This document shows positions 33,001 to 54,890 of a stretch of 64,000 bases of DNA, piece by piece. The stretch spans positions 199,743 through 263,742 of the forward strand of contig CAYJXI010000001.1 of assembly GCA_964374105.1 (NCBI GenBank). Direction: 5' to 3'. A program made the position numbers and the translations under genes. Every line of letters begins with the position of its first letter. Position 1 is the first letter of the stretch. A model generated the notes under the pieces. It ran no database searches. It was given only the letters and a program-made list of their open reading frames with translations, and was not told where the DNA came from. Source of the stretch: an uncultured Planctomycetales bacterium. Its GTDB lineage: Bacteria > Omnitrophota > Gorgyraeia > Zapsychrales > JANLHA01.

Positions 33001-36000
33001 CCCCGCTGGGAATTCCATCTTTGAGGGGAAGCCCAGATTCCCGGAGGATATAAGGCCAGAGGCCTATGTCTTCAGCATTCCTCAGGAAGTGGTAAGAATG
33101 CTTAAACCTGTTTACGATGAATCGGAAAAGCAGAAAGAAGCAGGCGGAAACTTATCTCCCAAAGGAAACAGGGATGGCGCCCATTTTTCAAACGAATGGG
33201 AAAATTGTTTAACCCGCTGGCTTAACGCAAGGGAATTCAAGGAAGTGGCCGAGGAATTGGTCAAAGGACTTAAAGAAATTCCAGGGGCCATCATGCGGCT
33301 TAAACGCTACCAGGACCCCTTATTTAATCTTAAAGCCATCAAGGAAGCGTTGGAACAAATCATTCCTGGTTTCTCTGAACAGATTTACTTGAAAAAGATT
33401 GAAGAAGTGATGACTGACGACACTTGGCAAGTGGTTTATCATGTGGTTTCTCCAAAGGAATCCTTGAGCTTGGGTGAGGCAGATGTTATGACCAATGGCG
33501 CCAGGGCGACTTTACTTTCCGAAATCCGCGACCAAAACGCCTGGGTGGGGGCACAAGAAACAATAGATAAATCGCTTAAATCATTAAAACTGCAAAGAGC
33601 GATTTGGGATGCGAGAAAACATCCTTTGGATGCAACGATTTTGCTCAAAGCCGAAGAACTTTTGTTTGCATTCCAAAAAGAGTTTGGGGAAACTCATTTG
33701 AGTGAAAGGGGAAAGTTGCTGAGCCAGATCAGAGCTGGCCGATATCCTCATCATTCCCGCATCATCCGAAGATTTCGCTGGAAACTTCAAGGGAAAGACC
33801 GAAAGATAGAGGAATCCTTACGATTTTTCCATCGCGGCCGTGAGTTGTGGGGAGAAGAGGTTATTCGTGATGAAGATCGGGCGGACTTCCTTATTGCCGA
33901 GGCTAACTTTAAGGCTTTTAAAAGAGGGAGTTTGACACGCAAAGAACTGGCCTACGCTTTAAGCATATTAGGAAGCGGGAGAGAGGGGAAGTTGAAGCTG
34001 AAACTGCGAGATTTTGTGGTGAGTGCTCTGAGTTTAATTCCTGAGGATCCGCATGCGCTGATCTCAGAAACGGCTTTAAAATTACTTGCTCAATTTCGTG
34101 ACAGCAAGATTCAGGTTGTCTCCTCTGACAAAGGGACATATAGTGTTACGCCCTTTTTTAAACAAGCCCTCCAGTTTCATAACTTAAGTTCTCGGTGTCG
34201 ATATTTATTGCAGCCTTATTGGGAACCAGGCCGCGGCTTGATTCTTTATTGGATCTCTAATAAAGAAACGATAGGCTACGATATGACTCCTTATCGTTCG
34301 GCCAGGCCGTCATCGAAATTGAAAGTTATTCCTGCCCATGTTGTTGTTCGTGCCCAAGATTTAAAAACTGCTCGATGCAATCCTGGCCAGCTCTTAACAG
34401 ACCTGGTAAGAGAAGTTATCCCGATTGATCCTCTTAATCCCGATGAAGCAAGCTTAAAGGCATTGGAAGAATCTCTTAAAGATCGGCGCGATCAACCGCT
34501 AAATATTTTTGTTAAAGGAGGTTCTCATACGGTTAAGCCATGGGAAGATAACAATAAATATATCTCCTTCCAGCACCTGAAACCCAACAGCTCCTATACC
34601 ATTATGCCTTACTGGGAACCAAAAAAAGGTTTAAGGACCTTCTGGGTACGGGAGGGAGAAGTAGCTGTTTATGATCTTATTTTGTATCAACGTTTCCGAC
34701 CTGACAACTCACGGGAGTTAATCAGTGCTAAGAAAGAACGCGAGGATAAGCTCCCTGCAGCTGATCCGCAGCGGTTGAAGGTTTCCTTACTTTGCCGCAA
34801 TTGTTTCATCCTGGCCTTGCGGGAACTAGGATGGGATTATCAAAGATTGGAATCTTTTCTGGAGGCTTTAACAGAAGAAGAAAAACTTAAGGATTCCCCC
34901 AACAGTAAAACTCCTTTGATCAAGGCCCAGGCCATTGTCCGCATTTTGGCAGATGAGTTTGAGACAATCGCAAAGGAAATTTTTATGAGGGGGAGCGGGA
35001 CAGATGTGCAAGGGCGTAAAATTTATCATACTTTCTTATCTGAAAAAGGCACACGGGAAGCAGAAGCGTTATTAAACGTTATCCTCGATTCCAGCATGTG
35101 GGTAGGGGCGAAGGCTAATGAGGAAGAAAAAGGGGACAGTCCCCATCCGGGGCATCCGGGGACAGTCCCCACCGATCCCTTAGAAAAAGGACAATATCTG
35201 GTTATCGCCATGGAAACGGAAAGGTTGTCGGAATTAAGTGACCGGATGCGGGAAAGGGCGCTTTCTAAGGAGGGCCGAAAAATTAAAAGAAAAGGGCTTA
35301 ATGAAATTATCGCCTACTACGAGGAACGCAAAGCCGCTTACCAAGAGCTGGAAGAATTTATGAACAAGATCATTGCAATCGAGGACCCGTTTGACATTGA
35401 TTTTGAAAGACTGTTTGAATTGTATGTCCAGATCATTTCCTTTGCCCATATTCGGGCTGGATTCCGTCGGCGCGTGATCGGACCTTTAAGGTCACTGCTT
35501 TTTATGAAATTGCCCGGCTCCATAGCCCTTTTTGTACAACGGTGGATGTCGTTTATTTCCACCGGTCTTTCTGACATCACAACGCACCTCAGGGATGTGG
35601 AGTATAAGGAATTGTTATTTGTCATTGAACTTAATCCCAAGGCGAGAAAGATTATCCTAAGCCAAGAGAGTCCGCTGGTGCTCAAACAATTATCGCAAAG
35701 GGCAAAACCGGTTTATCAGAGTCTGGAGGATTTTGCCTTTCGCTATAAAATTGAACGTAACCAGAATGATGATATGACCAACCCCCTGCCTTTAGAAAAA
35801 CTGTTAAGCAATATCCGAAAAGACCTTGAATCCGGGGAATCCCGCAACCCGATCCCCCTATTGTTTAGCCGGACACCGCAGGGATATGCCTTTGAGTTTG
35901 AGCAGATCGGAAAATGGGTCAGACAGAAAGCGCCTCGTTTTGATGTAGAGGTTTTCCAAAAGATCATGATGATTTCTTGGGAGATGCCGGCCCAGCTCGA

Positions 36001-39000
36001 TAGGGAGCGCCATTGGCAGCATCGTTATCAGAACCAGTTACAGGGAATACTGTCATCGATAGAAAAGCGATTGAAGAAGGCCCGTTTGTTGAGTCAAAGA
36101 CAGAGCGTTTATGACCTTTCTGCGGAGGAATTGCTTAATCTGATTGAGAGGTACCGCCACTTAGACCCCCACCGCGCTAAGGCGGGCCTGCCTGCCGGAC
36201 AGGCAGGGAATCAATTGCCAAAAACAGAGCCGGAGCGGGAAGAGGCGATCCAGCAGGAAATTAGCGGCAATCGACCCCTATTTCTTGAACAGAGTCAATA
36301 CGTTCTCGAGGCAAATAAGGAAGCGAAAGAATTGGTGGGAGAGAAAGATCGGGATATTGTACGATCTTTAGAGCAGATGTCTTCTATGGAAATTCGCGCC
36401 GGGCCGATGCCGAATTTGTGGAGTGTTGTTCGGGAAGTGTCGCTTGTGAAGCGTGAAGCGTTAGGAGAAAAACGAGATACGAGTCCCGCCTCACGGGAGA
36501 CGAGATATGTCCTCCACCTCGATCGATCCCTCTTTGATTCCGCTAACCGCCATGAACTTCTTCTCACCCTCATCCACGAAGCAGGTGTCCTTCTGGGCCG
36601 AAGCGATGAAGACAATGAAAAATTTGCCCAGAAGGTTTTGGGTGATTTTGGTATAGAGAAAATTCATTTGCATTCATTAAAAGATATTGGAAAAGTTGAC
36701 CAATTGGTCAAAAAGATTAAAGAGCTCATTCAAAGTGGCTACTGGAAAAATGTTTTTGAGCTTTTAATGGAACATCTTGGCAAAGATCCAGAAATTGATT
36801 CAAGGTTGATAAGGGATGCTATTGAGTATGCATTCCGCGAGACTGCCTTGAAGTTATATGGGAATTTTATTCCTACCAAATTTATTCAGGCAGCAGGGGG
36901 TTTTCTGTTGAGGCTTACTCGGAAGGCTACAAAAGAAAAAAGGTATGATGTCTTGAGGGCTATCCTGGAACATTATGGGAATTCTTGGTCTAACAAAGAT
37001 TCTGGTGTGAAAAGATTGATTCTCCAAGAAGAGCCAGCCCTGTGGCCACTCCTTTATATTTTCGATATGGTAATTAAAATTTTAAAGAAAGATGATCCAA
37101 CATCTCACCCAGAGATCTTCGAGCATGTTCTTCCTTTCATTATCGATGTATTTCCACCCAAGACACTTTATTGGATTAAAACTCGACGGATTACTAGAGC
37201 ACCAGGATTCATAACATCTGATGATCGATTTGAGTCGAAGGAGAGTCCCTTTGTGCAAAAAATGGTTGAATTGTTTAGTCTGCTTGCTGAAAAGTATCCC
37301 GCTCATCCTTTATTACATTTGGCTTTAGAGAAATACATTGGTCTGCGAGAAAAGGTACAGGAGCAATTACAAAGAAAAAGTAGACTGATGGGGCCGTTTC
37401 GAGCGTTAGCTACATTGTTAGGTTTTAGGAGAGAGGGAAAGTCTTTGGAAATTCAAAGGTCTTTCACACTAACACCTGAAATGCAATCTCTTCTTCCTCG
37501 GATTGAATTGAAACCAGAAGAGATGAATTTAATATTAGATCAGAAAAGAGACATCGAGGAAACAGCGGTAACATTTTTGAAAACATGGGATGATTTTGTT
37601 ACGGCCTTTCAAGTCCTTTATAAGGCTCTACGTGATGAGACCTTGCGGATTTCTTATGATTTTGACGTGGAGGGCCGGCATACCCAAGGAGGGAGAATCA
37701 TTGAGAAAGCCTATCACGAAGGATGGATTCATGATACAGGTTTCGAGGCCTATATTCACCTTCCGGTCGGGATTCAGATACCTTTGAAAAAATGGTCAAG
37801 TATATCTGATTATAATTGGTGGGATGAGTATCATAAGCCTCTACGATATTATTTGAATTATTCTTTAGATATGGAAAGAATTCAGGAATTATTCCAAGGG
37901 CTCACATTCTCTGGTCTAAAGATAGGGGATCGTCTGGCCGAAGACGAAATTTGGGATGAGGGAATTATATGGGCTATGCTGGACAATAAGTTTAATGAAC
38001 AGTTAAATACAGTTCGCACTTTGAGAGAAGAATTAATTCGGTTAGCTATCAAACTCGAAGCCGTCAGTACAGGTCAGACAGAGGAAGAAATACGGAATCA
38101 ATACGATGGGAGTGCGTTGGTTAGAAAATGGCTTAAGAAATTTGGGATTCATGTTCGCGAGGCTAATAATCTTGATTTTAAGAAATTGACTTTTGATAAA
38201 TCTGCACAAACTGAAGAATCTTCAAAAGGTGATGAACAATCTGAGGATGATCGTGAATTCACCGATCCCCACCGCGCCAAGGCGGATAACAATCTGCCGA
38301 AAGATCCGGTTGAGCGCGAAGAGGCGATTCAGAAGGAAATCGCCGGTACTCAGAAATTGACGGGCTCCCAAAGGCAATACGTACTCAACGCTATCTGGCA
38401 AGCTCTGAAACTGGCCAAAGAAGATCAAGAAATCGTCCGCTCGTTTGAAGAGATGGTCAAAATGGAAATCCGCGCCGGGCCGTTTAGGTATATTTGGGGC
38501 ACCATTCGTACATTGTACAGCGTACTTCGTACGTCGAATGAACCGGGAACTTTACGAAGTACGATGGACGAAGTACGATGGACGTTATTCCTCGATCAAT
38601 CCCTCCTTGATCCTGTCAATTATCGCGAGCTTTTAATCACTCTCATTCATGAAGCCGGAGTCCTTCTGGGAAGAAGTGATGAAGATAACGAAAAATTCGC
38701 GCAACAAGTCATCCCCATTTTAAGCCAACCGGCCCAAGAACGGATCCTTGAGATGGTTCGAAAGTACTTCCTCTATCGAAAACCATTGAAGGATGAAGAA
38801 ATTATCCAACTTATCGGGTTTATTTCAGCTCAAATTCAGGTTCCTGTTGAAGAGCATGGCAAAGCTGTTCGTGAAATGCTGGCAGAGATAGTCAGGCATG
38901 ATCTTTTTGAACAAAACAGGTTCAATAGGATTTTAGAATTGGCAGGAATTTGGTACGAGCATTTTTATGTATTTTCAACTGAAGCGCAGGAGCCGAGAAC

Positions 39001-42000
39001 AAGAGGTTTAGAGTCAGTGCTTTTTGTGGACCAGCCAGCAGCCAAAAAAGAGTCAGTCAATCCTATCAAAGCAGCGCGTACTTTGAAAGAAAAAGGCGTC
39101 TCTTTAAAAGGATTAGAGCGAATGATTGGTTATTCCCGATTCGTTGTAGCTGTAAGGCAAAAGGAAACAATCGAACATCACAGTTCTTACCATGTCAAAG
39201 AACGAGAAAGAAAGAGCCAAGGCGATTTAAAACGATTGGAAGTCGTTCGATATATTTACAAAGCTGAAAGGTTTAAAGACGTAGAGATTGGCTCGTTAGA
39301 ATTGGGATTAACATCTGAAGGGATTGCTCTGGTCGCAGGTACGGTGTTCAATCAATTAGAGCGTTACCGGCAATTCAAGCCTGACCGGTTCAAAATTATT
39401 TTAGACACAATGAATGAAGTGTTTAAGATTTTTGTCCCAGAGGAAGGGATTTACGGCGAGGCATATCTCCGTTCAATGGGAGAGGTCATTGATCAGTTGT
39501 TAAAGCAAAGGGATTTCGGAAAAGAAGTCAACGACATCTTGGCAGGCGTGGCTTTATGGAATAAAGAGCTGCGTGGGCGGTTTAATCAATGGCTCGAGTA
39601 TCAAAAAGAACCCACAAAATATGTTAATCCAATCCTTGCTCTTGCCGCTCGGAATATTCCTGTATCTCAGCTGCAAGCTGTCATCAATTATTTAAGGATC
39701 AAACTGGGAGAAGTTCAGAATATCTTCTTCTTATTTTTAGAGCTGCGAGCGCAGAGTGATTCAGGTATTACAAAATCGCAAACAGCCAAAGAGCAGATGG
39801 ATGCATTCGAAGGAACTTCGCAGGCGGAAATTGAATTTGTCAAAGCCTTATTGGCAGCCATACAGGCACGCAAGCAAGAAGGAGACAATCTTGAATCCCG
39901 TGGATCCCCCGATCCCCACCGCGCCAAGGCGGGGAATCATCTGCCGGAAGATCCGGTGAAACGCGAGGAGGCGATTCAGAAGGAGATTGCTGGGAATCAG
40001 AAGATCCCCGATAAGGTAAGAGAATATGTGGTACGAGTTATCAGAGAAGCCCAAGGGATCGTGGGCAAAAAGGACCGAAAAATCGTCAGGGCCCTGGAGG
40101 AGATGGCCTCCATCGAGATCCGCGCGGGACCGTCGTTGAACTTGTGGGGAGTTATCCGTAATAGGTCAAAGGTCAAAGGTCATAGGTCAGTGGAAAATCC
40201 TATGAGCTATGACCTATCAGCTATGAGCTCCCCAGCTATCAGCTCTTCGGCTGAAGTTAACATAAAAAGGGACAGTCCCTTTTTATGTCAACCTGTTCTC
40301 TTCCTCGACACTTCCCTCCTTGATCCCGATAACCACCAGGAACTTCTCATCACCCTGATCCACGAAGCTGGCGTGCTCTTGGGCCGCGGCGACAAACGGA
40401 ATGAACGATTTGCCCAGCGGCTCTTTAAGACCCCCGCGCCTTCCCTGAGCTGGCACGCCTTCAAAACAGAGTTTATAAAGTATCCTTTGAAGAGACAGTT
40501 GTTCATGTTGACAGGTTTCATCACTGAGGTTGTGGGAATATTTCTGGGAAGCCAATTGTTAGTCCTTGCCGGGATAGGGGTCCTTATTCCCTGCGCGGTC
40601 ATCATGGTTCGATCGGCCATCAAACGTGAGGACATGACCCGCACCCTTTTAACCCAATGGATTTTAAAAAATATATATTTGAATGAGTTCTCAAGTCAGC
40701 ATTTGATGGACCTCAACGCGGTGATTCGATTGCTTGCCTCACTTGGGAAATTAAACCTCGAACTTAAAGAAGCGCTTCTCCATGACCTGCTGGAACGCTA
40801 CGCGTTAAGAAAACCAGGAAAATTTAATTTAGATCATCTTGATCAACTGACCCGTCATTTTGAACCGAAGGGATTGGTTCGTTATTTTCTATTTTATTTG
40901 TCGACCCGGCCCAAGGTCGCGGCTCAAGTTCGTTTCATGGTCAAGCAGTGGATAGAAGAGAACAAGCTCTTCCCCTTACATTCCGTCATCAAGAACAATC
41001 TTTCCATCGGCCCCAAAAAGGTTCTGGTGATTCACAACATTGCCGACGGAATGGGGGATGAGTTGATCCGTGTCGGGACATTGGTCCAGGCCTTATTAGA
41101 CTTCAATCCTGAATTAACGGTCACCATTATCACGACTAGAGATTACCTTTATGATCACTCCCGCGTGCGGCTTGATGTCGATGGCGAGCTCAAGGCATTG
41201 GAGCATGATTATGATGTCGTGGTTCATTACTACGACAAAAAACAAAGATTTTCCGATGTATTAGAAAAACGCGTTCAAGATTATCTGCAGACGCACCCTA
41301 AGATATTTCTGTATATTAGAGCCGACAAAGCCACCGATCTGTTTACCTTTTCTGAAGTCATTGTCGATCAGAAAGAGTACGCGGATGAGCTTAAACTCAA
41401 CCAGCCGCGAGGGAATCATCTGGCCTTCTCTAATAATGTCTATGAACCAATCTTTCGGTTTTTGGCTGAATTGGGGATTCCCTTCCGCGTGGGCGAGGAG
41501 GAACCGCAAGGTGAGTCGTTGTGGATTGGGAAACCCAATCCTGAGGCAGAGATTTTTTGGCAGGATGGTCTCAGCGCGTTCCGCAAGTTACAGGGGAGGT
41601 CTCAAGGAGACAATCGGCCGGTTGCCTTATTTATGCCTTTTGGAGGGATGCATCCCAGCAAGGGAATCGATGCTCTTGAGCCTGAGTCTCTCTACCTCTT
41701 CCTCACAATGGTCAGGCACCTCATCAGTAAGGGTTATGACATTATTATTATTCCCAATGGAGAAACGTGGGGATCTTCAGAGATTGCCGTCGCCATTGTT
41801 GAACGGCTTTTTAATCATGAGGAAAAGACGCACATCATCATAGGTCCGGAACCCAGGGAAATCCCCAGAGACCTCAAATATCTAATTTCCTACTCAGACT
41901 ATAATTTATTCTTTGAAGGGGGCATGGTTCATTTAGCCTATCATCTGGGATGTCCGTATCATTTTCTAACGATGCCCGGTTCAGGAGTTTTATCAAAATG

Positions 42001-45000
42001 GACACCCGTGGCCTTTGGTCCCCATCAGAGATTTATCATCTCAATGAGGAATTCTATGGCTCAGTTGGCTGATATGGTCCCCACAATGCTGGAGATCCAT
42101 GAGGAGAAGGAGAAATTTTTTGAAGATCTGTTTGAGGAGGAGGATGAAAAAAAGGACAGCCACTCTGCGGACATTCTCCCCCAAGACCCCCACTGCGCTA
42201 AATCGTGGGCGCGATGGCCGCTCGATAAAAAAGAAAAAGAAACGGCGATTCAAAAAGAAATCAGCGGGAATAAAGTTGTGACGCAAGAACAGAGAGACTA
42301 TGTTATCGGTGCAATACGCGAGGCGCAAAGGTTAACAACGATCGATCAAGAAATTGTCCGGGCGTTGGAAGAAATGGCCCGAATGGAAATCCGCGCCGGG
42401 CCGATGCCGAATCTTTTTGGGCTGGTCCGTGCTCAACGTGATCCTGCCTTTATGACTCGTGTGCTCAATAGACTCAGGAAGCATTCCTATAGTCATTATA
42501 TTCTGCATTTAGATACGACTTTAGGCCAATTCCTCCTTGATCCAGCCAACCGCATTGAACTCCTCAGAACTCTTATTCATGAAGCCGGAGTCCTGTTGGG
42601 CAAAAGCGATCAAAAAAATGAACAATTGGCAAAAGAATTTACCAAACATTTAAAGCCTTCAGCGGAATGGTTGCGCGAGAATTTCCAAAACCGCTGGATT
42701 CATCTTCAACAACCCAGAAGTGTCGCTCTGCCCGGGTTCCAGGGAGTCACTCCTGATCAGATTGATCGTGTTATTGAGCCATTTATTTATGATGCATTGG
42801 ACGGTGGGGCCAAGGAATTAAGATTTGAGATGAAATATGATTTTGATAAAGAGAAAGATGAGGAGAAGTTTGTCATTGATGTTTATGAAAAGGACGGGGA
42901 CAAAAAAGTAGGCTGGGATGATGAGCCTTTTAAGGATGTATCAAAAGGTATGGCTGAAACAGTTAAGAAATTGATTAAAGCCCGACAAGTTGCGCTAGAA
43001 TCTGGCAGTAAATCTCCTATTCCATTGGACCATCGCGAATCTTGGGAGAGTATTTTGGATTCGCTTCGAGGGATTAGGTTCGCGATCCTTCCTGGAGTAA
43101 TAACTTTGCTGGAGGGTGTTTTAACCCATGTGGGAACAGGTGAGCTGGGCCGGGAAATTTATATAGGAGAAAAATTGATTGAGGCGTTAAGCCAACGAGA
43201 CCTGGCGCTTTTGCTATTGGAATCTGCTCGCTACGATGCCCTGCCGCTGGTGATGCCAACAACAGCAATCCAGCATGACAAAATGCTTTTATCCAGGATT
43301 ACAAAAATGATTGGTCATCAGCCGGTAAGGGCATCGGTGAGACAAAAGAGGAAAGGTCCTCAAAGTCAAAGATTTTCCAGCCGCGGCACAAAAGATAAAA
43401 ATAAACTTCTCAATGAACTAGAGGGATTAATCAAGAAGATCGAATCGCGGGATGAGGGTGGTTGGAGACGATTTCGAGATTTTGATTTGTCCAGGGTCGA
43501 AAGAATTGTTCGGGAACTGCAGGAGAGTTTTGAGTTGGGTGTAGCGATGGCCAATCGTCTTGCCCGGGTGATTATTGATTTGACTGAAAGTCCAAATATT
43601 TTCGATTCTCTTGGCTCGTTAATCTGGGTGTTGCTCATGTCTCGGGAGCCTATGGACCCCTATTTAGTGAACCAATTGGCAAAAATCTCGTTAGAAAAAG
43701 TTCGGGGGGTTGATCATCACTTGGGGTATTCCAGCAGGTGGGGACCCAATCATCTTTATCATTTATTTTTGATGGCGGAGATTCATCATGCTGTATTAGA
43801 CATGGATACCGTAGAGGAGATTCTGAAATATGGTTTAGAGGATATCACGACTGGATCTTTCCGATCGGAAGTTTCTGAGTTCTGGCATAGGGTGCCGGTC
43901 ACGATTGGGACTTTGCTTTCCGGGCAGAGATGGTTTTCATCCGCATTTTTGGATCATTGGATTGAAAAGTGGAATGGAGACTTTAAGGATGTGATTTACA
44001 TGGAAGATCAGTTTGACGATATCCTGCAGAGCAATCAACCTATGACTGAACAGCAAATCAAAATGATTCAGGAAAAACTTTTGAAAAAAATTAAGAGAAG
44101 AGATCTGAGCTATAACAATTTGTACACCCTCGGTGCTCTTTTGGGCAGCGGCAGGCCACTTTATGAAGAGCAGCAATTTATCGCCAATGCGATCAAGGCG
44201 GTCAAACAACATCTTGATGAGATCGAGGCTGAAGGCCAGGAACTGCATTTTAGTTACTTAGTCTTCACCGTGGGCCTGCTCAAGAATCAGCGAGATCTTT
44301 CTCAAGAGGATCAAGATTATTTTGAGCGGTTGCTTTGGAAGATTTGGGGGAAGCATGCCGGCCATTATTGGCAAGATGGCCGTTTCGTCGATGCCTTTTC
44401 ACCTTATCTCTATGGATTGCAGGGAAAGATCAGGGATGATGTGCCTTTGGGACTGGAGGCTTTTAAGAAAAGGTTGGGTCCTCATTGGAGAACTGCCTTC
44501 AAGATTGCGAATCAAGTTTTCTTCAAGCTCAATCTTTCAGGATTGGCCATCGGTTCGCAGAGTTTGATTAAACTGGAATTACTCAAGGAGGCTCTTGGTC
44601 AAGGCCATCTTGACGAACAGTTTATTGAGAGGATTAAAAAGGAATTCATTCCATCCTTGCGGGTCATTGAGAAGGTGACCGATGTTTATCCAACGGTTGG
44701 GATCGAGACTAAAAAATTGATCCGTAATCACGATGATCTGATCACGGTCTCCTGGCAGGTAGCGATTATCAACTTTTTATCCGAGATCCAATTCCCGACA
44801 GGTTTAGGCAAGTCCTATGCTGAACTAGAGCATTCGGAACTGCGGATCCCTCCTTCGGTTTATCCCATATTCCGTCGGCTTTTGAAAGAAATCAAGCAAG
44901 TGCTGTTTGTGGAAGATGAAAAGGAGTTGGATTTCTATCATACCGCTGTTGCCGGCGATTACGCCGATGAAAGCCGGTTCCTTTTATCCAGCTTCTTTTT

Positions 45001-45727: not shown

Positions 45728-46228
45728 GCCCATGACCCGCACTTTGACCAAATCCGCAAAAATGCCTTTAATGGTGATGATCCCCAAAGATCACAAACCC
45801 AATCTCCCAACGACCCCCACCGCGCGAAGGAGGGCGACCGTGTTGAGACAGACCATCCTTTAAGACCAATCAGCCAGCTGGGCGCCGTTTTGTGGCGATT
45901 TTATCAGCCTCGGGTGGCATGGGGATTTTTAAGAATTGCCTTTTCAACGACCGTGGCGAATTACCGGCACCTGCGCCATCACGGTATTCGCGGGGCGCCA
46001 CTGGGACGAATCCAAGCCGCACTCCGCGCGCCCTTCTTCAAAACCGCCGAACGTATTGACGGCCTGCCGCGGTGGAATATCGACCGCCATCTCCTCCCCG
46101 AAGATATCCAGCGCCTCGTTGACATCCACGAATCGCAACCCTGCTGCCGCTTGGGTAACCGCGAGATGGCGATAACCATTCAGAAAAGGGAAAGCAGACA
46201 ACGATCTAAAGAAAATTCAGCAGATGTC
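45728..46228 (+). other. Junction between the two giant ORFs. The single in-frame TAG (45725-45727) is followed by 54 stop-free in-frame codons that include a DPHRAKEGDR motif copy (45812-45841), then a ~400-bp GC-rich (~60%) block, before AT-rich ORF2 proper (an in-frame ATG is at 46229).
   Basis: Frame arithmetic: positions 2, 45725, 45812 and 45890 are all 2 mod 3. The GC-rich block shows ORFs on both strands in the provided track. Confidence 0.6.
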
Positions 46229-49200
46229 ATGGGATCCCTGCAATTATATGTTTTGAAAAAGTTTCTCAAATTCATTCTGCCTCTCTTGATTTTGGCGGTC
46301 CTGAATCATATTTTTGCGGTCATAACGCTGCAATCCTCTGATCAGTTATGGGCGGCGATTGATACGGCTGAGGAGCTGGTTCAGGCCCGAGAACACTTTG
46401 AGCATTTTCCATTTCACTTTGAGAAAGGTATTGAGTTTATTATAGGTAATACTCCTTTGCCTGACATGCCCTTCCCATATCCGCTTATTACTTATGCTCC
46501 ACTGCAGCGGCACATTATTACGTCGCTTTTTACTTTAATTCCGGTCCCGTTTATTTATTGGGCGGTTGGCTTCATCAAATCACCAGATCTGAAAAAGCCA
46601 ATAAAATTATTCAGGCTATTCAGTCAACTTTGGTGGGTGGGAACTTTTCTCCAGGTTATTGACATGATCAAATTTGGGGGAGTTTTTGATTCATTCTGGG
46701 GCTTCTCCTTGGGTGATTTATTGATCTCTATAGGATATATAGGAACTGTTCTTGGTCTCTTGTCCCTATTACCGGAATTGATTTTTGATTTGCCCTTGTT
46801 ACTCTGGGTTAAATTAAGAGGGATCATAAATTCGTTACGAAAAAGAATTCGGGCTAACAATCAGGACGTTAAAAATATTAACAGCGTCCATTTTTCATCA
46901 GAAAAAGCAGCAGAAGAAGAAAAAGGTGATAGTTCTCATTTTTCAACTGATAGAAATGAACCCCAAACCCCGAACGATGAACGACCGCCCCAAGACCCCC
47001 ACCGCGCTGAACCAGGGGATAAAGCATCGCAAGATCCTACTCGAGCTAACCGGGTTTTACAGGAGGATGAGCGGTTTAAGTTAGAGGAGATTTTGCGCAA
47101 ATACGAGTTGGCTGTCCGTGAGGCACAGGAAACGCAGGAGAATTTAAAGACCGCGTTCTTGATTCGTTTAAGAAACCAAAAGGAATTTCTCGAAGAAGCC
47201 CAAATCCTCAGTCAGACGAAGTTAGTGCAGGCACCCGCAGCGATGGTCAAGGAAATCCTGACGCTGCAGTTTGAGGCTGCAGAGCCTTTGGTGATTTATG
47301 CTTTGAATCTCCAACTCGAAGAGCAGGATTACATCCTTCTTCTTCCCAAGGCGCGGGAGGATGAAAGGGAAGCCCAGAAATCGATTCTGCATGAGGTCAA
47401 GGCGATTCATCACCGTGGACAAGCGGATGCACAGACCATCCACGAAGAGGCCCTGCGCTTTGAGTCTTTGCTAGAGGACGAGGCAGAGCAAGAGGAAGAT
47501 GAGATTTATAAAGTTGAGAAGATTGGAACCGGAATTTTCTGGAAACGCCTGACACAGAATTGGGAAGAGGCGCTGAAGGAAATTGAAAAATTACAGAAGC
47601 GTTCTTGGTTCCAGAAGGCCCTGCAGGAATTCCGGGTCTATCAATCGCAGATTTTCCGTATGGGAAGCATTTTGACGTTGCTCGTGTTGGGGGGTGTGGC
47701 GATAACCTTTGGTTCGTGGGCCGCCCTCTTGGGAGGGATCCTCCTTTTATTGGTTATTGGGGAAATGGTGTTTGGGTTAGTGGAGAGCTTGGGAGAACTG
47801 TTGTACAGCACCCCGTATGACATCCAAGGAGTCGAAGGCCGTTTGGCTGTCCCTGCCATCTCGGAAAAAGATCTAAAAATTCTTTACGCTATGGAAGGCC
47901 AAGAGTTACTCTTGGTCAACACCGGGCAGTTTGTCCTGCCGCGGATTTCTTTCTACCGCGCCTGGCGCCACAGCTTCAAAGGATGGAACGGACCGCGGAT
48001 GTTTGAGGTGCCGCTCACCTCTTCGGATCACGGGATTCTTATGTTTCTATCCTATGCTTTGTTCAGCCTGATTGTTCCGCTGTTGATTCAGGTGGCGATT
48101 GGCATTTTTCATCTCGGGCAGGAAAACCTGATGGGAATCATTCGTTTTGGGTTTAGTGTCTTGGTCGTCCTAGCCCCTTTCAAACTCTTTATGGAACTAG
48201 CCAAGATGCATAAGGAAGTGACGATTTATGCCAGACGAATCGTTTACCTTTGCGAATTGGCAAAAAGATCTTCCGGGACCTTGCGCGTTAACGAGGCGAT
48301 TTATGAAGATATAGAGAAGTTTAAGCAGGAAACGGGCTGGAAGGTCTTATGGACAGATCATCCGTATCTTTTGGTTTATCCAATCTTGGCTAGTCAACAG
48401 CTGGTTCTAAATATCGGTTGGATCGTGGCGGGCTCTGAGCGGATCGATGATTACCGCATTCCTTATATGAGAGGGATCTTGCGCTCGGTCCGTCAGGCTA
48501 TCCCTAAGGGCTTGCGAGAAGAAATAGAAAAACAAAAACAGAGGCTTGAGATTGAAAGACTTCTTCAAGAGGTCGAAAGGTTAATGGATGTCGAAGACAT
48601 CCGCACATTATATGAAGAACAAATTAGTGAACCTAGAAAGAAGTTGGAGGCATTGAAGGAACAAGATTTGGAAAGCGGCTGGTGGGAAGCACGAATCAAT
48701 GCCGCCTTGGCGGCCCTTGATCTCATTGATGCCGCCCATTCGGGTACTAACGAAGAATTCCAAAGGGCAGAAAAACGTTTCCGCGATTCCGTGCGTATCG
48801 GCTTACAGTTGGATGAATGGATTGATCAGGGTTTAAGAATTATAGAAGATCGAAAGAGGACAACCTATACTCTAGGTGAAGAAGATTCTGCTCTCAGGGA
48901 TAAGGAGGCAATAGATTCAGAGGATCAAGAAACCCAACAACGAGATAATTCCCATCAAGGAGAATCGAATAATGATTTGCCAGATGAAAACAGAGATGCT
49001 AAAAAAGAGGCGAGTGCCTCATTCCCAGATGAGTCACAGGCCAGGGGACACAAGCCACCGCCTCAAGACCCCCATCGAGCCAAGACGGGGAAGAGGCCAA
49101 CGGAAAAGCAGATTCGAGAGGATATAAGAGGGGCAAGGGTCATGGGGCAAAGGTCAAGGGAAAAGATTAAGCAGGCGGTTAATCAAGTGATTGATCTTGT

Positions 49201-52200
49201 ACGTCAGGAAGATACGAATGTGGCGGTCGCCCTTGAACAAATCCGCGACACCATCGAAATCCGCGCTGGGCCGTTTGAGTATATTTGGGGGACTGTAAGA
49301 AAGTCACAAGTCACAAGTCATCCTTCGACAGGCTCAAGATCCCTTGCGAAGGAATCCCGAGCAAAGTCGAGGGACAAGCCACAAGCCACCGATTACATCC
49401 TTTACTTCGATGAATCCTTTTTGAACAACCCCGCCCTCCACACTGAATTACTTCTGACTCTTATTCACGAAGCCCGCGTCATCGCTTATCCGAAAAGTTT
49501 GGATGAGGACAATGAGTCCTTTGCCCAAAGGGTTTTTAAAAAATTAAATGCCTCTGTTGATGGGGGAAACTTACTGCAAAATTGGTGGGATCGGATTTGT
49601 CGTCTCTGTCACCAATTTGGAATTTATTTTCTGTTGGGTGGCCTTCTGATACTGGGATTAGCAACAGTGGGAATTGTTGTCCTTTATTTTTATCTTTTCT
49701 TTGATCTAGTAGGATATTTTGGGAATGAGCCGTTTAGTTACGGGGGGTTTAGAAGTTATGTTGCCAGCTTAGTTGTCTTGGGGATCATTGATGTCTTTTT
49801 AGTCAAGGTCGTAACATTTTTCCGCAGATCTCATGGCGAGAGGGAAGAGGAAAGAATCCCACTTGGATATTCTAAAGATGAAGTCGATGAAAGGGATGTC
49901 TTAACACGTTATCTTGTCATTGGGGGAGGCATAACCCTCATTAGTTTACCATTTATTTTTTATGCTAATTGGGGGTATATTGGGCAAGGGATCACAACGG
50001 CTTTACAGTATTTTCTAAGTTGGAAGCTGCATTATCTCTTGGGAATTTTGCTGATCGTTTCCTTTCTTTATCATCTTTATTTGAAATTCACTGACGAATA
50101 CGATATAAACGGCTTTGGAACGAAAATTTACCGGGCGGTTGTTGCGACTCTCTTTGCCCCCATTTGCGAAGAGGTCATTTTCCGTTTTATCTATTTCCAA
50201 GTGTCTTTGTGGTTTTGGACGAGTGTCTTTGGATTTTTCCAGCCTTTCAATTATCCGATTCCCTTTTTGGGCGTATCGATTGGCTTTGATCTTCCTTTAG
50301 GAGTCTTTATTGCCATTGCCAATAATGCGGAATTATTTTTCAAAGCCCATGGACGGGCCAAGTGGTTTCATCATTGGCTGATGGGGGTGGTGGCCTCTTA
50401 TGCCTATTATCAGACAAATTCCTTGATTGTTCCGATCGTTATCCATTTCATTTGGAATGGGATCGCCAGTGTGTTTTCCCTGATCATGAATGCGGTCTTT
50501 CCTTTGGAGTTAAGCATTTTTTCCGACCGATCGAAAGAAGAAAAGAAAGTGAAGAATGTCTTCCCTTTGAAAAATTTTGAATGGAAAAATATCATTGCCA
50601 GATCAATATTCCTCATCTCCATTTATTTTGGGATTGTTTCGTTAATGAATATTGCTCATTTTATTTCTTATCTTTTTATGATCAGCCTGCCGATTTTTAT
50701 TCATTTTATCTTTTCTATGAAAGGGAAAGGTATTTTTCTTACTATCGAAAGACAAAAATGGACGAATCTAAAACGATTGGGGTTAGGATTATTACTTTTC
50801 ATTATGATCTTCCCAGGTTTGTTTTATTCTTTAGATGGTCTGTTGGCGTTTTTCCATCCCCTTTGTTTAAAGTTTCTTAACGTCATTGCTTATGTCATTT
50901 TGGGGTTATTGATTACCCTCGTATGTCTTCAGCCGTTTGCTCAATTTCTTTACAATATCACTTTCAATCCTAAAATCAAAAAGGCACCTTGGAGTTTAGC
51001 ACGTTTTGTAGTTTATACCCTTGTCCCCACATTTTTGTCTTTGCCGATTATTTATCTTTCCCTATTTATCGATTTACAAAAAAATGTCTTTGATTGGATA
51101 TTCAATATCCTTTTAATCGCAACGATCTTTGGGATATTGCGCATGACGGATTATTTTCTTTATCGTTTCTTTTATCGACCGTTTAAAATCAAAGCCCTGT
51201 TTATGTTTTTATTGCAATTTTTGGCCATAGTCTTTGTCATGACTCAACTTTCTGTTAAGCGAGCCCTTAAGGATGAGGCGGTTTTGCAGGCCTTACCCTC
51301 ATCACCGTTAAAAACTTTTGAGGTGGCTCCTTTGGCTATCTTAATTGCGGCGGTTATTTCTCTCATCATCATTGTCAGTTATATCCATTCCTTTGAAACC
51401 AAAAGATTTCATAAAAGGGACCTCAAGGCCCTAGAAATATCTGCAATCAAAATTAATCCTCAACAATTTTCCTCAGAAATGAAAGACATCGCTTTTCATC
51501 AAATGGATATGCCATCTGTTCTAGCCTTTATCTTGATGAGTTCCAATACTATTGAGGAAGTGGAAAAAAAGTTCGCTGCTTTAGGAATTTTAAAGGATTA
51601 TCTTTATCCCCAAAGTCATCTTGACCGAAGAAAACTCGTTAAGATCATTCAAAGGCTCTGGCTAGAGGTTTATGACTTTCTACCATTTCAATACCCAATG
51701 GCCTTTAAAGAAAATAAACTGCCAACCGCTGAGGTTATATTAGGGGACTTAAAGATCGTCCTTCATGGATTTGCGCATATTCCATCTTACGAAAGACCAT
51801 TTCAGCAGACAGTTGATGAACTTATCCAGAAAAATTTATCGGTTTATTTTGAAGCCGGTATCAAACAGATGATGGGAGGGATTCAATACGGTTATGCATT
51901 AAGCGATCAGTTCGGTTCCACCACCAAGATCACGCAAAATTATTCTTGGCCGAGTCAATGCTATTTGATGATTAAAAATTTTTTAATGATGGTCATAATG
52001 GTTGTGGATATTTTTATCTCAACCATTAAAGCCCTGCTCCATTTGGAGGGAGAGGCTCCCATCAAGTTGTTTTCTACCCGCAAGACAAAGAGTGTTAAAG
52101 AAACGATTCCCCTATTTATCCAACAACAACTTCCCCAGCCTTTGGATTGGACGTGGGAGCTTTATATTGACCGCAATGAGACTTATGATTGGGTAGGGAT

Positions 52201-53008: not shown

Positions 53009-54868
53009 TCACTTGCGGAGGAATTGTTTATCTAAAAAAGACTCTGTCATTTCCACCACCGTGGGTCTTCCGTGGGGGCAAGTGAATGGATCCCGGCATT
53101 GCGTTAATTGGTCGCGCAGGTATTCAGCCTGTTCCGCCTTTAAGAAGTCTCCCGCCATGATCGAGCAGCGGCAGGCCCGCCGGGCGATTGTTTCATGATC
53201 ACAAAGGATGACACTCCCTCCGGAAAGGATATCATGAAAGGACTGGGCAGGGTCTTTGAGAAGGACAGGATAAGTATGAACGGCAACCGTCTCTTTATCA
53301 AAGAGGGTGGAATTGAATCCAATTTGATCGAGTTTTTCTTTGGCCTCTTCCCAATTCAGAAGTTCCTGGGGGGTAAGTTTGACAAGATAGGGACTCAACA
53401 AATGCTGGACTTCTACTTTTCCTTTTTGCAGTTGTTCAATCAGTTGTTCAAAGGTGATCCTCTCTTGGGCGGCATGCTGGTCGATAATCAACAAAGAATG
53501 ATGGGCTTCATACAGAAGAAATTTGTTGATAAATGAACCAATAAAATGGGCTTTCGATAATTTGTCCCTTAAGGTTTCTTGTTTATGTTGGGTGATTGCC
53601 TCACCAGCGAGGGAATAATAGGACTCCTGGGGAAAGGTGTATTGTTCGGTTGGCAGGGGTTTCAGGGTATCCGAGGCAAGGCTTTTTTCAAAACTGATTG
53701 GTAAAAGATCATCAAAGGCCTTCTCGGCCATCATCGTTTCGGACAAGGCCCGATGAATGGAAAGACGATCTTTAAGTTGGCCCAGAGGGGCTTTATCTTT
53801 CATTTCTTTGGGGGGACTTAAGGTCATGAGCGTCTGTTCGCAGATCTGCCGGATGATTGAGGTTATCACAAGTTCATCTTTGATTTTGACTTCACGTTTG
53901 GTGGGATGGATATTGACATCGACCTCGCTTGCCGGCAGTTGAAGATAGAGACAGAAAAAGGGATACTGTCCACTTGGTAAAAGCAACCGATAGACTTCAT
54001 TGAGGGCAAAACTCAAAGATTTATTCTGAACCGGGCGGTTATTGACAAAGATAAACTGAAGATCCCGCCGGGGACGATGGATGTTGATATTCCCTAAGAG
54101 CAAGCGGATGTCCGTATCCCGGTCAGTTAAATGTTGATTGACCTCAAGACAATGATTTTCTTCTAAATTCAGGGCGTAAGCCACCCTTTTTCGGAGGTTA
54201 TCCTGGGCTTTAAGATCGATCAGCGGCCTATCCTGATGAATCAAAAGAAACTGGCATTGATGATGAAGGAGGATATAGGGGACAACTGTATTTAAAATTT
54301 GATTCAATTCGGTTGTATCGGTCTTTAAAAATTTTCGCCGGGCCGGTGTGTTAAAAAATAATTCCCTCACCTCAATGTGTGTTCCGCAGGGCATCGCCAC
54401 CGGGCGAAGATCCAGCTTTTTCCCACCTCTTAAATGGATTTGAAGTCCTGTTTCCTGATTCTTTGTCCGGCTTCTTAATGTCACATCACAGATGGCAGCA
54501 ATGCTGTAGAGGGCTTCTCCCCGGAAGCCTAAGGATTGGATATTAAAAAGATCATTAAGATTGCTAATTTTGCTTGTGGTATGCCGGTTAAAGATTGTTT
54601 CGATATCATCGGGATCGATCCCCATCCCGGAATCTTTAACACTGATCAATGTTTTGCCGGCATTTTTAAGATGAATCTCAATAGTTTGGGTCTTGGCATC
54701 CAAGGCGTTCTCGATCAATTCCTTGATGACCGAGGCCGGGCGTTCGACCACCTCGCCGGCCGCGATTTTACTGATGATTTCTGGGGGGAGGGTATGGACT
54801 TTTTTCATATTTTTTATAACATAGATCGGCACAGATTTAAAGTAACGGATCATCACAGATGCGCCCAA
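53009..54868 (-). CDS. mutL: DNA mismatch repair endonuclease MutL
   Basis: 619 aa. N-terminal GHKL ATPase signature VIKELIENALDA. C-terminal endonuclease motif DQHAAQERI and FTCPHGRPT. Stop TGA. Confidence 0.9.
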   Translation of the reverse strand: MGASVMIRYFKSVPIYVIKNMKKVHTLPPEIISKIAAGEVVERPASVIKELIENALDAKTQTIEIHLKNAGKTLISVKDSGMGIDPDDIETIFNRHTTSKISNLNDLFNIQSLGFRGEALYSIAAICDVTLRSRTKNQETGLQIHLRGGKKLDLRPVAMPCGTHIEVRELFFNTPARRKFLKTDTTELNQILNTVVPYILLHHQCQFLLIHQDRPLIDLKAQDNLRKRVAYALNLEENHCLEVNQHLTDRDTDIRLLLGNINIHRPRRDLQFIFVNNRPVQNKSLSFALNEVYRLLLPSGQYPFFCLYLQLPASEVDVNIHPTKREVKIKDELVITSIIRQICEQTLMTLSPPKEMKDKAPLGQLKDRLSIHRALSETMMAEKAFDDLLPISFEKSLASDTLKPLPTEQYTFPQESYYSLAGEAITQHKQETLRDKLSKAHFIGSFINKFLLYEAHHSLLIIDQHAAQERITFEQLIEQLQKGKVEVQHLLSPYLVKLTPQELLNWEEAKEKLDQIGFNSTLFDKETVAVHTYPVLLKDPAQSFHDILSGGSVILCDHETIARRACRCSIMAGDFLKAEQAEYLRDQLTQCRDPFTCPHGRPTVVEMTESFLDKQFLRK

Positions 54869-54890
54869 TATCCGCGGTCATCTGTGCCGT

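What the first reader, a model, noticed from the sequence alone, without database searches (positions are those of the whole stretch)
36164..49540. About 2-kb-period super-repeat of a ~130-aa module spanning the ORF1 3' end, the junction and ORF2, with a hypervariable STR/hairpin hotspot inside each copy
Seven module copies (36164, 38264, 39911, 42186, 45812 fragment, 46994 partial, 49067) share DPHRAKAG-REEAIQKEI(A/S)GN...IRAGP(x)3(W/F)G...LL(L/I)TLIHEAGVLLG(R/K)SD(E/Q)xNE(K/Q)FA. Copies 2 and 3 retain about 85% nucleotide identity at their starts, which points to recent duplication or gene conversion. Immediately after IRAGPxxxxW each copy has a different low-complexity insert built from short tandem repeats and hairpins. 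These are gaagtacgatggac x2 (38556-38583), aggtcaa x4 (40163-40190), ggcaa(a)ggtca units (49121-49155) and agtcaca x3 (49302-49322). A fixed position accumulating different STRs looks like a slippage-driven variable loop, possibly for surface variation. The conserved HEAGV could be a degenerate metal-binding motif.
Basis: seen in the sequence. Interest (0 to 1): 0.75.

Follow-up and report, generated by a model that had tools for sequence, protein, structure and literature searches.

The report
Repeated protease-like domain with hairpin inserts
A giant bacterial gene of at least 17,600 codons carries five old copies of a previously undescribed, metalloprotease-shaped domain, and in this lineage one surface loop of every copy has been enlarged by young DNA that is hairpin-forming and built of 7-base repeats in four of the five; the domain is a candidate marker for where such giant proteins might be cut.

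Summary
The motifs are real, but the region is not a 2-kb super-repeat. Five full copies of one domain (36164, 38264, 39911, 42185, 49067) share 38-58% amino-acid identity. The spacers between them are unrelated. The sites at 45812 and 46994 keep only the DPHRAK motif.

The variable site is the tip of a tight beta-hairpin. Most relatives have no insert there; all five window copies carry 21-43 extra residues. TRF arrays cover 44% of insert bases against 1.2% elsewhere, all seven arrays have period 7 or 14, and several pair with inverted copies to form hairpins.

Slippage-driven surface variation is unsupported: tracts are short and not triplet-based, and copy 7's are identical in a second assembly (the other copies lie outside that contig).

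ORF1 and ORF2 are one gene interrupted by a single TAG.

The parts
2..45727 (+). ORF1: giant open reading frame of at least 15,241 codons, running off the left end of the window
   Evidence: Scattered Pfam domains only: Peptidase_M50, a methyltransferase and Trypsin_2. About 55 hydrophobic candidate transmembrane segments across ORF1 and ORF2.
45725..45727 (+). Single in-frame TAG separating ORF1 from ORF2, which are in the same reading frame
   Evidence: TAG also ends two neighbouring genes, so it is an ordinary stop codon in this genome.
45809..45889 (+). Conserved coding sequence lying between the TAG and the first possible ORF2 start codon
   Evidence: It begins a 128-aa alignment (window nt 45809-46192) that is 74% identical to part of L001's single uninterrupted 2596-codon ORF. 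There is no ATG, GTG or TTG in frame before 45890.
45890..52798 (+). ORF2 (2302 codons from the TTG): continuation of the giant gene, rich in transmembrane segments, with an Rce1-like CAAX-protease domain at aa 1413-1524
36164..36646 (+). Module copy 1 (zincin-like domain)
   Evidence: HMM i-Evalue 4e-72
38264..38719 (+). Module copy 2, the copy that was modelled
39911..40432 (+). Module copy 3
   Evidence: HMM i-Evalue 1e-80
42185..42649 (+). Module copy 4
   Evidence: HMM i-Evalue 2e-70
49067..49549 (+).
   Evidence: HMM i-Evalue 4e-68. Its nearest relatives all lack inserts.
36434..36505 (+). Insert in copy 1 (about 23 aa): period-14 and period-7 arrays (36416-36461) plus a hairpin
   Evidence: (z = -1.9 against gene background)
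38510..38578 (+). Insert in copy 2 (about 22 aa): a heptamer array (TCGTACA-like) followed by an inverted array (CGAAGTA CGATGGA x2), forming a hairpin with 26-nt arms
   Evidence: (I1)
40160..40291 (+). Insert in copy 3 (about 43 aa): AGGTCAA x3.9, a partly complementary CTATGAG-like array x6.3, and a separate AAAAAGGGACAGTCCCTTTTT hairpin
   Evidence: MFE -53.4; z = -3.4 against gene background, -7.5 against shuffles; I6
42431..42496 (+). Insert in copy 4 (about 21 aa): no STR and no hairpin
   Evidence: (z = +0.2)
49301..49393 (+). Insert in copy 5 (about 30 aa): AAGTCAC x2.9, then a central hairpin, then ACAAGCC x2.3
   Evidence: Identical in the second assembly.
45812..45829 (+). Stand-alone DPHRAK motif with no domain behind it
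   Evidence: (D5)
46994..47011 (+). Stand-alone DPHRAE motif; only the first 24 residues match the family profile
25175..25426 (+). Divergent extra copy of the core (RIRAGPF...YILL...SLIHEIGAV...HLDH)
   Evidence: weak; hhalign E = 4.6e-4, probability 33%. Motifs are collinear, but the statistics are marginal.
38252..38355 (+). Short high-identity tract shared with 39899-40002 (84% nt identity): a probable gene-conversion patch
   Evidence: (D7)
49129..49160 (+). Period-14 array (AGGGGCAAAGGTCA x2.3) in the N-terminal part of copy 5, not at the hairpin-tip site

Best explanation
The region is the last third of one giant, membrane-associated gene of the kind known from Omnitrophota. ORF1, a single TAG and ORF2 together make at least 17,598 codons.

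Within it, a domain of about 125 aa recurs five times as old, dispersed paralogues. Each copy sits at the head of a different, unrelated downstream segment. The domain belongs to a previously undescribed family. Its landmarks are an N-terminal DPHRAK strand, EIRAGP, a three-stranded sheet, a long helix ...ELLxTLIHEA(G/R)..., a turn, and a last helix D-x-x-N-E-x-F-A.

SHOWN. The domain has the zincin metalloprotease fold. It keeps the His-Glu of the active-site helix and a downstream Asp and Asn-Glu. It has lost the second His of HExxH.

INFERRED. It still binds a metal or a peptide. It acts as a punctuation module that recognises, and perhaps cuts, the giant polypeptide at or near the DPHRAK motif, which also occurs alone at other domain boundaries.

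SHOWN. The 'hypervariable hotspot' is the tip of the beta2-beta3 hairpin, a surface turn that is tight and insert-free in most family members. In the lineage of this genome and its relatives L001 and P0001, every copy carries 21-43 extra residues there. In four of the five window copies, and in L001 and P0001, the DNA encoding them is young and unusual: tandem arrays of 7-nt units, often followed by the reverse-complement array so that the whole forms a hairpin, or compact palindromic elements. Copy 4's insert shows neither.

INFERRED. This DNA arose by replication slippage, template switching and in-frame landing of small palindromic elements. It persists because the loop tolerates it, not because the loop is a programmed variation device.
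For: Module and family: (invariant D1, K6, R70, E122, T126, H129, E130, A131, N142, E143, A146).

Rarity and host range: 13 proteins of 5.8 billion; 57 of 1.84 billion representatives. All loci are giant ORFs in MAGs labelled Omnitrophota or 'uncultured Planctomycetales/Planctomycetia', with 1-4 copies each.

Absence from libraries: not in Pfam, NCBIfam, PDB sequences or Rfam.

Motif: H-E-A-G-V-L-L-G-R-S-D parallels HExxHxxGxx(H/D). His replaces Asp at or next to that position in five distant members. That substitution tends to go with loss of His3.

Boundary motif: stand-alone DPHRAK occurs before other domains, in the window (45812, 46994) and L011, plus a core-deleted remnant in P0014.

Insert site and structure.

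Insert statistics: 7 of 7 insert arrays have period 7 or 14 against 5 of 34 elsewhere; Fisher p = 3.5e-5; hairpin z-scores.

Same heptamer-plus-inverted-heptamer build in another genome at the same site: L001. A nested palindrome sits at the same site in P0001/L023 (-64 kcal/mol, z = -8.7). A heptamer array lies in another loop of the same domain in L018.

Independent origins. Old paralogues against young repeats. One gene.
Against: The second His of HExxH is absent. None of the 76 instances that cover the motif has a strict HExxH, so catalysis is unproven and the domain may be a pseudo-protease.

Foldseek found no significant PDB match; the best was selecase at E = 0.42.

I could not read model coordinates. 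It is therefore unknown whether the DPHRAK strand lies in the active-site cleft or whether His3 approaches His129.

The His3/position-139 covariation rests largely on one divergent subfamily.

Nothing explains why the repeat unit is 7 nt. A 7- or 14-nt unit cannot expand one unit at a time in a reading frame, which sits awkwardly with simple slippage.

Copy 4's insert shows no repeat or hairpin at all.
Confidence: 0.6

Rival explanations
1. The loop is a contingency or hypervariable tract. Slipped-strand mispairing at the STRs changes loop length, or shifts the frame, at high frequency and so generates variants of an exposed surface.
For: STRs are strongly concentrated at one structural site. 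The site is a surface hairpin tip. Some repeats are perfect and therefore young, for example 38554-38584 at 100% matches. Heptanucleotide tracts do drive phase variation elsewhere, as in Haemophilus HMW1A (PMC8262952, listed; title and abstract only were seen).
Against: Tracts have only 2-4 units, whereas contingency tracts are typically longer (my own knowledge). Units of 7 or 14 nt would shift the frame of a gene of more than 50 kb rather than vary the loop. The copy-7 tracts are identical in two assemblies. Copy 4 has no STR. Most family members have no insert, so the loop is not an intrinsic variation device. Surface exposure of the domain has not been established.
Confidence: 0.12
2. The inserts are small mobile palindromic elements of the REP, MITE or RPE type. 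They have landed in frame, either because the conserved GC-rich DNA around IRAGP is a target or because only this loop tolerates them.
For: P0001/L023 carries a 117-nt nested palindrome with a perfect 13-bp outer stem at exactly this site. The copy-3 insert contains GGGACAGTCCC, which occurs 5 times in ORF1 against 0.02 expected. A second palindrome family, CCCGCC-WW-GGCGGG, occurs 5 times against 0 expected, always read through in frame. In-frame palindromic elements in permissive protein sites are known from Rickettsia (PMC10969869).
Against: The heptamer-array inserts of copies 1, 2 and 5 and of L001 are each unique in sequence, with no other copy in the window or in 24 loci. No terminal inverted repeats or target-site duplications were recognised, though I made no dedicated search for them. 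Only 64 kb of this genome could be searched.
Confidence: 0.25
3. The hairpins act at the nucleic-acid level. They would be pause, processing or attenuation signals in an mRNA of more than 50 kb, or DNA structures placed once per module, and the extra amino acids would be a by-product.
For: Four of the five inserts fold more stably than matched coding background. A Stouffer-type combination of the five z-scores, worked out by hand, gives about -3.6. The L001 and P0001 inserts fold strongly too. They lie at equivalent places in each module.
Against: Neither sequence nor structure is conserved between inserts. Copy 4 has none. Most family members in other genomes lack inserts altogether. The strongest hairpins of the gene lie elsewhere, at 30001, 17861 and 24081. 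There is no Rfam match.
Confidence: 0.08
4. The domain is an inactive pseudo-protease that serves only as a structural spacer or protein-protein interaction module. On this reading DPHRAK is simply its first strand and not a recognition or cleavage site.
For: The second zinc-binding His is lost throughout the family. DSSP places residues 4-5 of the motif in a short strand that is part of the predicted fold, with pLDDT about 85.
Against: His-Glu, the downstream Asp (or His) and Asn-Glu are conserved very strongly in paralogues whose synonymous sites are saturated. DPHRAK also survives on its own at domain boundaries without the core.
Confidence: 0.3

Closest known systems
M35 aspzincin metalloendopeptidases: peptidyl-Lys metalloendopeptidase of Grifola frondosa (PDB 1g12), deuterolysin (1eb6) and AsaP1 (2x3a)
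   Different: Sequence identity is only 12-13%. The module has no second His (HEAxV/A/L instead of HExxH). It has no GTxDxxYG motif (my recollection of the aspzincin signature, checked by eye against the alignment). It is not a secreted stand-alone enzyme but an internal domain repeated inside a giant protein.
Minigluzincins (selecase, proabylysin, projannalysin) and other minimal zincins (3e11, Wss1/WLM)
   Different: Those proteins keep a full HExxH. The match is weak (Foldseek E = 0.42). There is no detectable sequence relationship. The analogy for the DPHRAK strand has not been tested.
Peptidase domains proposed to process Omnitrophota giant proteins (C39 and S8; West-Roberts et al. 2023, bioRxiv 10.1101/2023.11.21.568195)
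   Same: The biological setting and the open question are the same. That paper suggests giant proteins may be cleaved into several products and states that cleavage points are unknown. This module is another protease-fold domain found in long and giant ORFs of the same kind.
   Different: It has a different fold and family, is not reported in that paper or in the 2026 domain catalogue sections I read, is repeated several times per protein at segment boundaries, and is catalytically uncertain.
Rickettsia palindromic elements and other in-frame MITEs
   Same: They are palindromic DNA of about 70-130 nt inserted in frame into coding genes at positions compatible with the protein fold (PMC10969869).
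   Different: RPEs are families of homologous copies scattered over many genes. Here most inserts are unique in sequence, are built from 7-nt arrays, and recur at one structural site of one domain family.
Simple-sequence contingency loci, for example the heptanucleotide tracts controlling Haemophilus influenzae HMW1A
   Same: Both involve tandem heptanucleotide repeats associated with a large, possibly surface-related protein (PMC8262952).
   Different: From my own knowledge, those tracts are long, homogeneous, promoter-located and demonstrably polymorphic. Here the tracts have 2-4 units, are intragenic, and show no variation in the one comparison possible.
Cyanobacterial STRR heptanucleotide repeats (own knowledge: Mazel et al. 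1990)
   Same: Both are tandem 7-nt units of unexplained origin that recur in one lineage.
   Different: STRRs are reported from a different phylum and, as I recall, are mostly intergenic with a few fixed consensus units. This is a lead from memory only and was not tested.

Membership tests
Zincin metallopeptidase fold | Alpha/beta core: a mixed sheet packed against a long active-site helix, followed by a second helix | tested here: met
Zincin metallopeptidase fold | HExxH motif supplying two His zinc ligands and the catalytic Glu | tested here: not met
   His-Glu is conserved, but the fifth position is V, A, L, S and so on. None of the 76 instances covering the motif has a strict HExxH. His appears there in only 2 rows (HEASH), and those are one copy (L011_1531, seen again as protein P0015_377).
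Zincin metallopeptidase fold | Third metal ligand (Glu, Asp or His) downstream of the helix | tested here: inconclusive
   A near-invariant Asp lies 10 or 12 residues after the His and is replaced by His at or next to that position in five distant members. An invariant Asn-Glu follows. The geometry could not be inspected because no coordinates were available.
Zincin metallopeptidase fold | Zinc binding and peptidase activity | not testable with these tools
   Needs biochemistry.
M35 aspzincins | HExxH plus the GTxDxxYG motif | tested here: not met
   Neither motif is present in the family alignment. Only the fold matches.
Metzincins / snapalysin-like | HExxHxxGxx(H/D) followed by a Met-turn | tested here: not met
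   One subfamily reads H-E-A-G-V-L-L-G-R-S-D, so the Gly and the Asp/His are in register but the middle His is missing. The other subfamily has a 2-residue insertion (HEARVIAYPxSxD). No conserved Met was seen after it in the family alignments by eye; there was no dedicated test.
Omnitrophota giant proteins (West-Roberts 2023; Nielsen and Lui 2026) | ORF of more than 10,000 aa with many transmembrane segments, in an Omnitrophota genome | tested here: met
   At least 17,598 codons. 55 candidate transmembrane segments. The module's relatives that carry a taxon label are in MAGs labelled Omnitrophota or 'uncultured Planctomycetales/Planctomycetia'. The taxon of the window itself is inferred, not shown.
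Omnitrophota giant proteins, 'Archaeovorin' type | SecA DEAD-like domain, and C39 or S8 peptidase domains | tested here: inconclusive
   None was found by Pfam in the 17.5 k residues present, but the N-terminus of the gene lies outside the window.
In-frame palindromic mobile elements (RPE / MITE) | Multiple homologous copies dispersed in the genome | tested here: inconclusive
   Met for GGGACAGTCCC (5 copies) and CCCGCCWWGGCGGG (5 copies). Not met for the heptamer-array inserts, which are unique within the 64-kb window and 24 loci. The rest of the genome was not available.
In-frame palindromic mobile elements (RPE / MITE) | Read through in frame at a structurally permissive site | tested here: met
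   The ORF stays open and the site is a hairpin tip.
SSR contingency (phase-variable) locus | Tract length polymorphic between cells or strains | tested here: inconclusive
   The only independent assembly is identical at the copy-7 tracts. No sister strain was found in genome, metagenome or protein collections. No reads were available.
SSR contingency (phase-variable) locus | Long homogeneous repeat tract | tested here: not met
   2.1-4.4 units at 71-100% matches, with one degenerate 6.3-unit array.

The most novel reading that the evidence does not exclude
The DPHRAK-zincin module would be a self-processing 'punctuation' protease whose metal site is completed by His3 of its own N-terminal strand. 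It would cut Omnitrophota giant polyproteins into separate working segments at DPHRAK sites. The non-triplet heptamer and hairpin tracts at its hairpin tip would be frameshift-prone switches that decide how much of the downstream polyprotein is made, and the in-frame TAG at 45725 would be a fixed example of such truncation.
Probability: 0.1. Interest if true: 0.85.

Novelty: new variant of a known kind. Interest (0 to 1): 0.6.

Why it matters
Whether proteins of 10,000 to 150,000 residues in Omnitrophota work as single chains or are cut into pieces is an open question, and the 2023 study says cleavage points are unknown.

This work supplies three concrete, testable things:
- a conserved protease-fold domain that recurs at segment boundaries;
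- a six-residue boundary motif (DPHRAK) that can be searched for in proteomic data;
- a profile that finds the family in other giant genes.

It also documents an odd mutational pattern. Hairpins built from 7-nt repeats accumulate at one loop of one domain, in independent copies and in a second genome (L001), and a nested palindrome occupies the same loop in a third (P0001). No standard mechanism explains this neatly.

It also shows that a 15,241-codon ORF and a 2,302-codon ORF are really one gene split by a single stop codon. That matters for how such genes are annotated and how their lengths are counted.

Tried and rejected
(1) A true tandem super-repeat. Rejected: protein and DNA self-comparisons show similarity only within the module.

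(2) Seven copies. Rejected: the HMM and hhalign give five full copies and two motif-only sites.

(3) A known family by sequence. Pfam, including a permissive scan of all 23 aligned members, NCBIfam, PDB sequences and Rfam gave nothing.

(4) A second word-indexed homolog search with a broader alignment added only one protein.

(5) The AFDB Foldseek library was unavailable. PDB Foldseek was not significant.

(7) Search for sister strains to test STR polymorphism. The genome scan and metagenome scan gave at best 44-48% identical modules. The 90% clusters of ORF2 and MutS have one member each. The '268-kb contig' is most likely the window's own source, because the 429-aa versus 448-aa difference is an alternative GTG start, and it could not be fetched.

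(8) TAG as a recoded codon. Rejected: two neighbouring genes end in TAG.

(9) Period-7 repeats as a general habit of these genomes. Rejected: only 8 of 75 TRF rows in the related loci have period 7, and two of those are the L001 insert itself.

(10) L009's near-identical module pair as a large segmental repeat. Rejected: only the 380-nt module is 98.9% identical; its flanks are not similar.

(11) DPHRAK as merely the translation of the CCCGCC-AAGG-CGGG palindrome. Rejected as a general explanation: relatives conserve DPHRAK while the following residues vary (P, S, D, K...), so no hairpin is encoded there.

Full report
SETTING. The window holds one enormous open reading frame. ORF1 runs from base 2 to 45727 (at least 15,241 codons, and it runs off the left edge), and ORF2 runs from 45890 to 52798 (2302 codons). 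The two are in the same frame and are separated by a single TAG at 45725-45727. There is no ATG, GTG or TTG in frame between the TAG and 45890. Even so, that stretch encodes a DPHRAK motif and, from nt 45809, begins a 128-residue alignment that is 74% identical to part of one uninterrupted 2596-codon ORF in a related contig, L001. TAG also terminates two neighbouring genes, so it is a normal stop codon here. ORF1 and ORF2 are therefore one ancestral gene of at least 17,598 codons, now interrupted by a nonsense codon, an assembly error or a read-through site. Downstream lie MutL and MutS on the opposite strand. Pfam recognises only scattered domains: M50 peptidase, a methyltransferase, a trypsin-like domain and an Rce1/CAAX protease. 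A hydropathy scan gives about 55 candidate membrane segments. This matches the published picture of Omnitrophota giant proteins.

THE OBSERVATION. An HMM built from the claimed copies finds five full modules, at 36164, 38264, 39911, 42185 and 49067. Their i-Evalues are 1e-68 to 1e-80 and their pairwise identity is 38-58%. The sites at 45812 and 46994 retain only the first 6-24 residues. A divergent further copy lies at about 25175-25426. ORF1 also holds a still more remote relative at about aa 7540-7640 and a canonical HELGH at about aa 1640. Similarity stops at the module edges in both protein and DNA comparisons, so there is no 2-kb super-repeat. The paralogues are old. At conserved residues, synonymous third positions agree only 34-57% of the time. 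The exception is the first ~90-100 nt of copies 2 and 3, with 84% nucleotide identity and 71% at synonymous sites, which fits a short conversion tract. In another genome (L009), two module copies are 98.9% identical over exactly the 380-nt module and not beyond it. Homogenisation or cassette-like copying of the module therefore does occur.

THE FAMILY. The module is rare. It was found in 13 proteins of a 5.8-billion collection and in 57 of 1.84 billion representatives in an exhaustive profile search. Most of those are fragments of very long proteins. Scans of genomes and metagenomes returned 21 loci, and in every one the module sits inside an ORF that spans the fetched DNA, with one to four copies each. 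The genome records are labelled Omnitrophota or 'uncultured Planctomycetales/Planctomycetia'. The canonical module is 122-132 aa. Invariant or nearly invariant residues are mostly polar: D1, H3, R4, K6, D54, R70, R82, E122, T126, H129, E130, D139, N142 and E143. No sequence library knows the family.

A BOUNDARY MOTIF. Conservation begins abruptly at D1 of DPHRAK, and the residue before it is unconstrained. The motif also occurs without the domain: twice in the window, once in L011 directly before a domain that looks like a GNAT acetyltransferase by its motif (not scanned against any profile library), and once in P0014 fused to the C-terminal NEAFA motif, which is a core-deleted remnant. Each module heads a different downstream segment. 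From this I infer, without proof, that the module marks segment boundaries and may recognise or cut the chain there. This is of interest because the literature states that cleavage points in these proteins are unknown.

THE INSERT SITE. In most of the roughly 80 instances, the strands after IRAGP form a tight hairpin (...GVIRNNILYLD...). All five window copies carry 21-43 extra residues at its tip, as do L001 (23), P0001 (37) and P0042 (31). About 16 others have 3-8 residues. The model shows low confidence exactly there. Copy 5's nearest relatives all lack inserts, as do P0042's. Copies 1-4 are interleaved with insert-free members. So there were at least three independent gains, concentrated in the lineage of this genome and L001.

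THE INSERT DNA. The DNA of the inserts is peculiar. Seven of the window's 41 TRF arrays fall in 1% of the sequence (p = 1.5e-7). TRF arrays cover 44% of insert bases against 1.2% elsewhere in the ORFs. All seven arrays have period 7 or 14, against 5 of 34 elsewhere (Fisher p = 3.5e-5). In copies 2 and 3, and in the L001 insert, a heptamer array is followed by a complementary array so that the whole folds into a hairpin; copy 5 has heptamer arrays on either side of a central hairpin. Four of the five inserts fold more stably than matched coding background, with copy 3 at z = -3.4. P0001's insert is a 117-nt nested palindrome at -64 kcal/mol. In L018 a heptamer array sits in the next loop of the same domain. 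Copy 4 and P0042 show none of this. Period 7 is not a general trait of the related loci.

OTHER PALINDROMES IN THE GENE. The same gene carries other in-frame palindromes. GGGACAGTCCC occurs five times against 0.02 expected, once inside the copy-3 insert. CCCGCC-WW-GGCGGG occurs five times against none expected. Neither occurs in the related loci, except for a near-identical core inside P0001's insert.

INTERPRETATION OF THE INSERTS. The repeats are much younger than the paralogues that host them. They are non-triplet, short, and different in every copy. I read them as tolerated products of slippage, template switching and landing of small palindromic elements at the one loop of this domain that accepts extra sequence. 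A programmed variation device is not supported: a single-unit slip would frameshift the gene, tracts have only 2-4 units, and the only independent assembly (99.994% identical, with its one mismatch at 51570) has identical copy-5 tracts. I cannot explain why the unit is 7 nt, or why this domain attracts such arrays in three genomes.

VERDICT. The degenerate metal-site idea is supported at the fold level. The surface-variation idea is not supported. What is new is a zincin-fold domain family confined to very long and giant ORFs (those with a taxon label being Omnitrophota-type), a boundary motif, and a heptamer-hairpin insertion pattern.

Noticed in passing
window 45725-45889, compared with L001 7216-7599: ORF1 and ORF2 are in one frame and are split by a single TAG. 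The 54 codons after it have no start codon. From nt 45809 the window begins a 128-aa alignment that is 74% identical to part of an uninterrupted giant ORF in L001. The gene is therefore at least 17,598 codons long and carries a nonsense codon, an assembly error or a read-through site.
   Followed up: yes
window 32187, 32209, 35133, 35159, 40269: The palindrome GGGACAGTCCC occurs five times inside ORF1 against 0.02 expected, twice as a perfect 22-nt tandem pair at 32178-32222. It is read through in different frames (KGDSP, RGQSP, GTVP). It is absent from the 22 loci held at that point.
   Followed up: partly
window 17910, 19275, 23871, 24125, 29879 (longer arms at 24116-24147 and 29870-29901): A second in-frame palindrome family, CCCGCC-(A/T)(A/T)-GGCGGG, has five exact hits against none expected, and two of them have perfect 15-nt arms. 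At 24116 it translates to KGDPAKAGSPF, which looks much like the DPHRAKAG motif. The DNA of DPHRAKAG in copy 3 (39920-39933) matches the palindrome with one mismatch. I do not know whether this is coincidence.
   Followed up: partly
window about 29480-30420, 17861-17940, 24081-24160: The most stable local folds of the whole window (-36 to -43.5 kcal/mol per 80 nt, against a mean of -14.9 with sd 5.3) lie here, inside ORF1 and outside the modules, and cluster around 29.5-30.4 kb.
   Followed up: no
window about 4847-4950 (aa ~1616-1650) and about 22620-22920 (aa ~7540-7640): ORF1 has a canonical HELGH (…LTVGLVHELGHWASPELEEK…) and a further module-like stretch (YLILIDQSL…LLHEAAEILMSNHP). The giant protein may therefore contain both intact and degenerate zincin-type sites. 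Neither matched NCBIfam.
   Followed up: partly
L009 617-996 and 4505-4884: Two module copies in another Omnitrophota giant ORF are 98.9% identical over exactly 380 nt, with unrelated flanks. This points to recent module-sized gene conversion or cassette-like copying.
   Followed up: partly
L018 6980-7011: A heptamer array (AACTCCG/AACTACG x4.6) lies inside another copy of the same domain in a different genome. It is in the loop before the ELLLTLIHEA helix rather than at the hairpin tip.
   Followed up: partly
L023 220-336 (gene of P0001): A 117-nt nested palindrome sits in frame at the module's hairpin tip. It has a 13-bp perfect outer stem CTGTCATTGCGAG/CTCGCAATGACAG, a 14-bp inner stem, and a CCCGCAAGGCGGG hairpin. 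The MFE is -64 kcal/mol (shuffle z = -8.7). It looks like a REP/MITE-type element. Fragments of its arms occur in L009.
   Followed up: partly
window 53009-57467 (- strand): MutL and MutS lie immediately downstream of the giant gene, convergent with it. The genome therefore encodes mismatch repair, which is relevant to how stable the short repeats should be.
   Followed up: no
window 15870-16430 (aa 5290-5477), 17790-19710 (aa 5931-6570), 24670-29450 (aa 8223-8312 and 9724-9817): ORF1 has other internal protein repeats unrelated to the module: a 97-aa tandem pair at 55% identity, a pair of about 200 aa at 32%, and a 94-aa pair at 56% that lie 1500 residues apart.
   Followed up: no
window 51570: This is the only difference (A versus G) across the 17,777 nt shared with NCBI contig CAMTXN010000015.1 (GCA_947085705.1).
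   Followed up: yes
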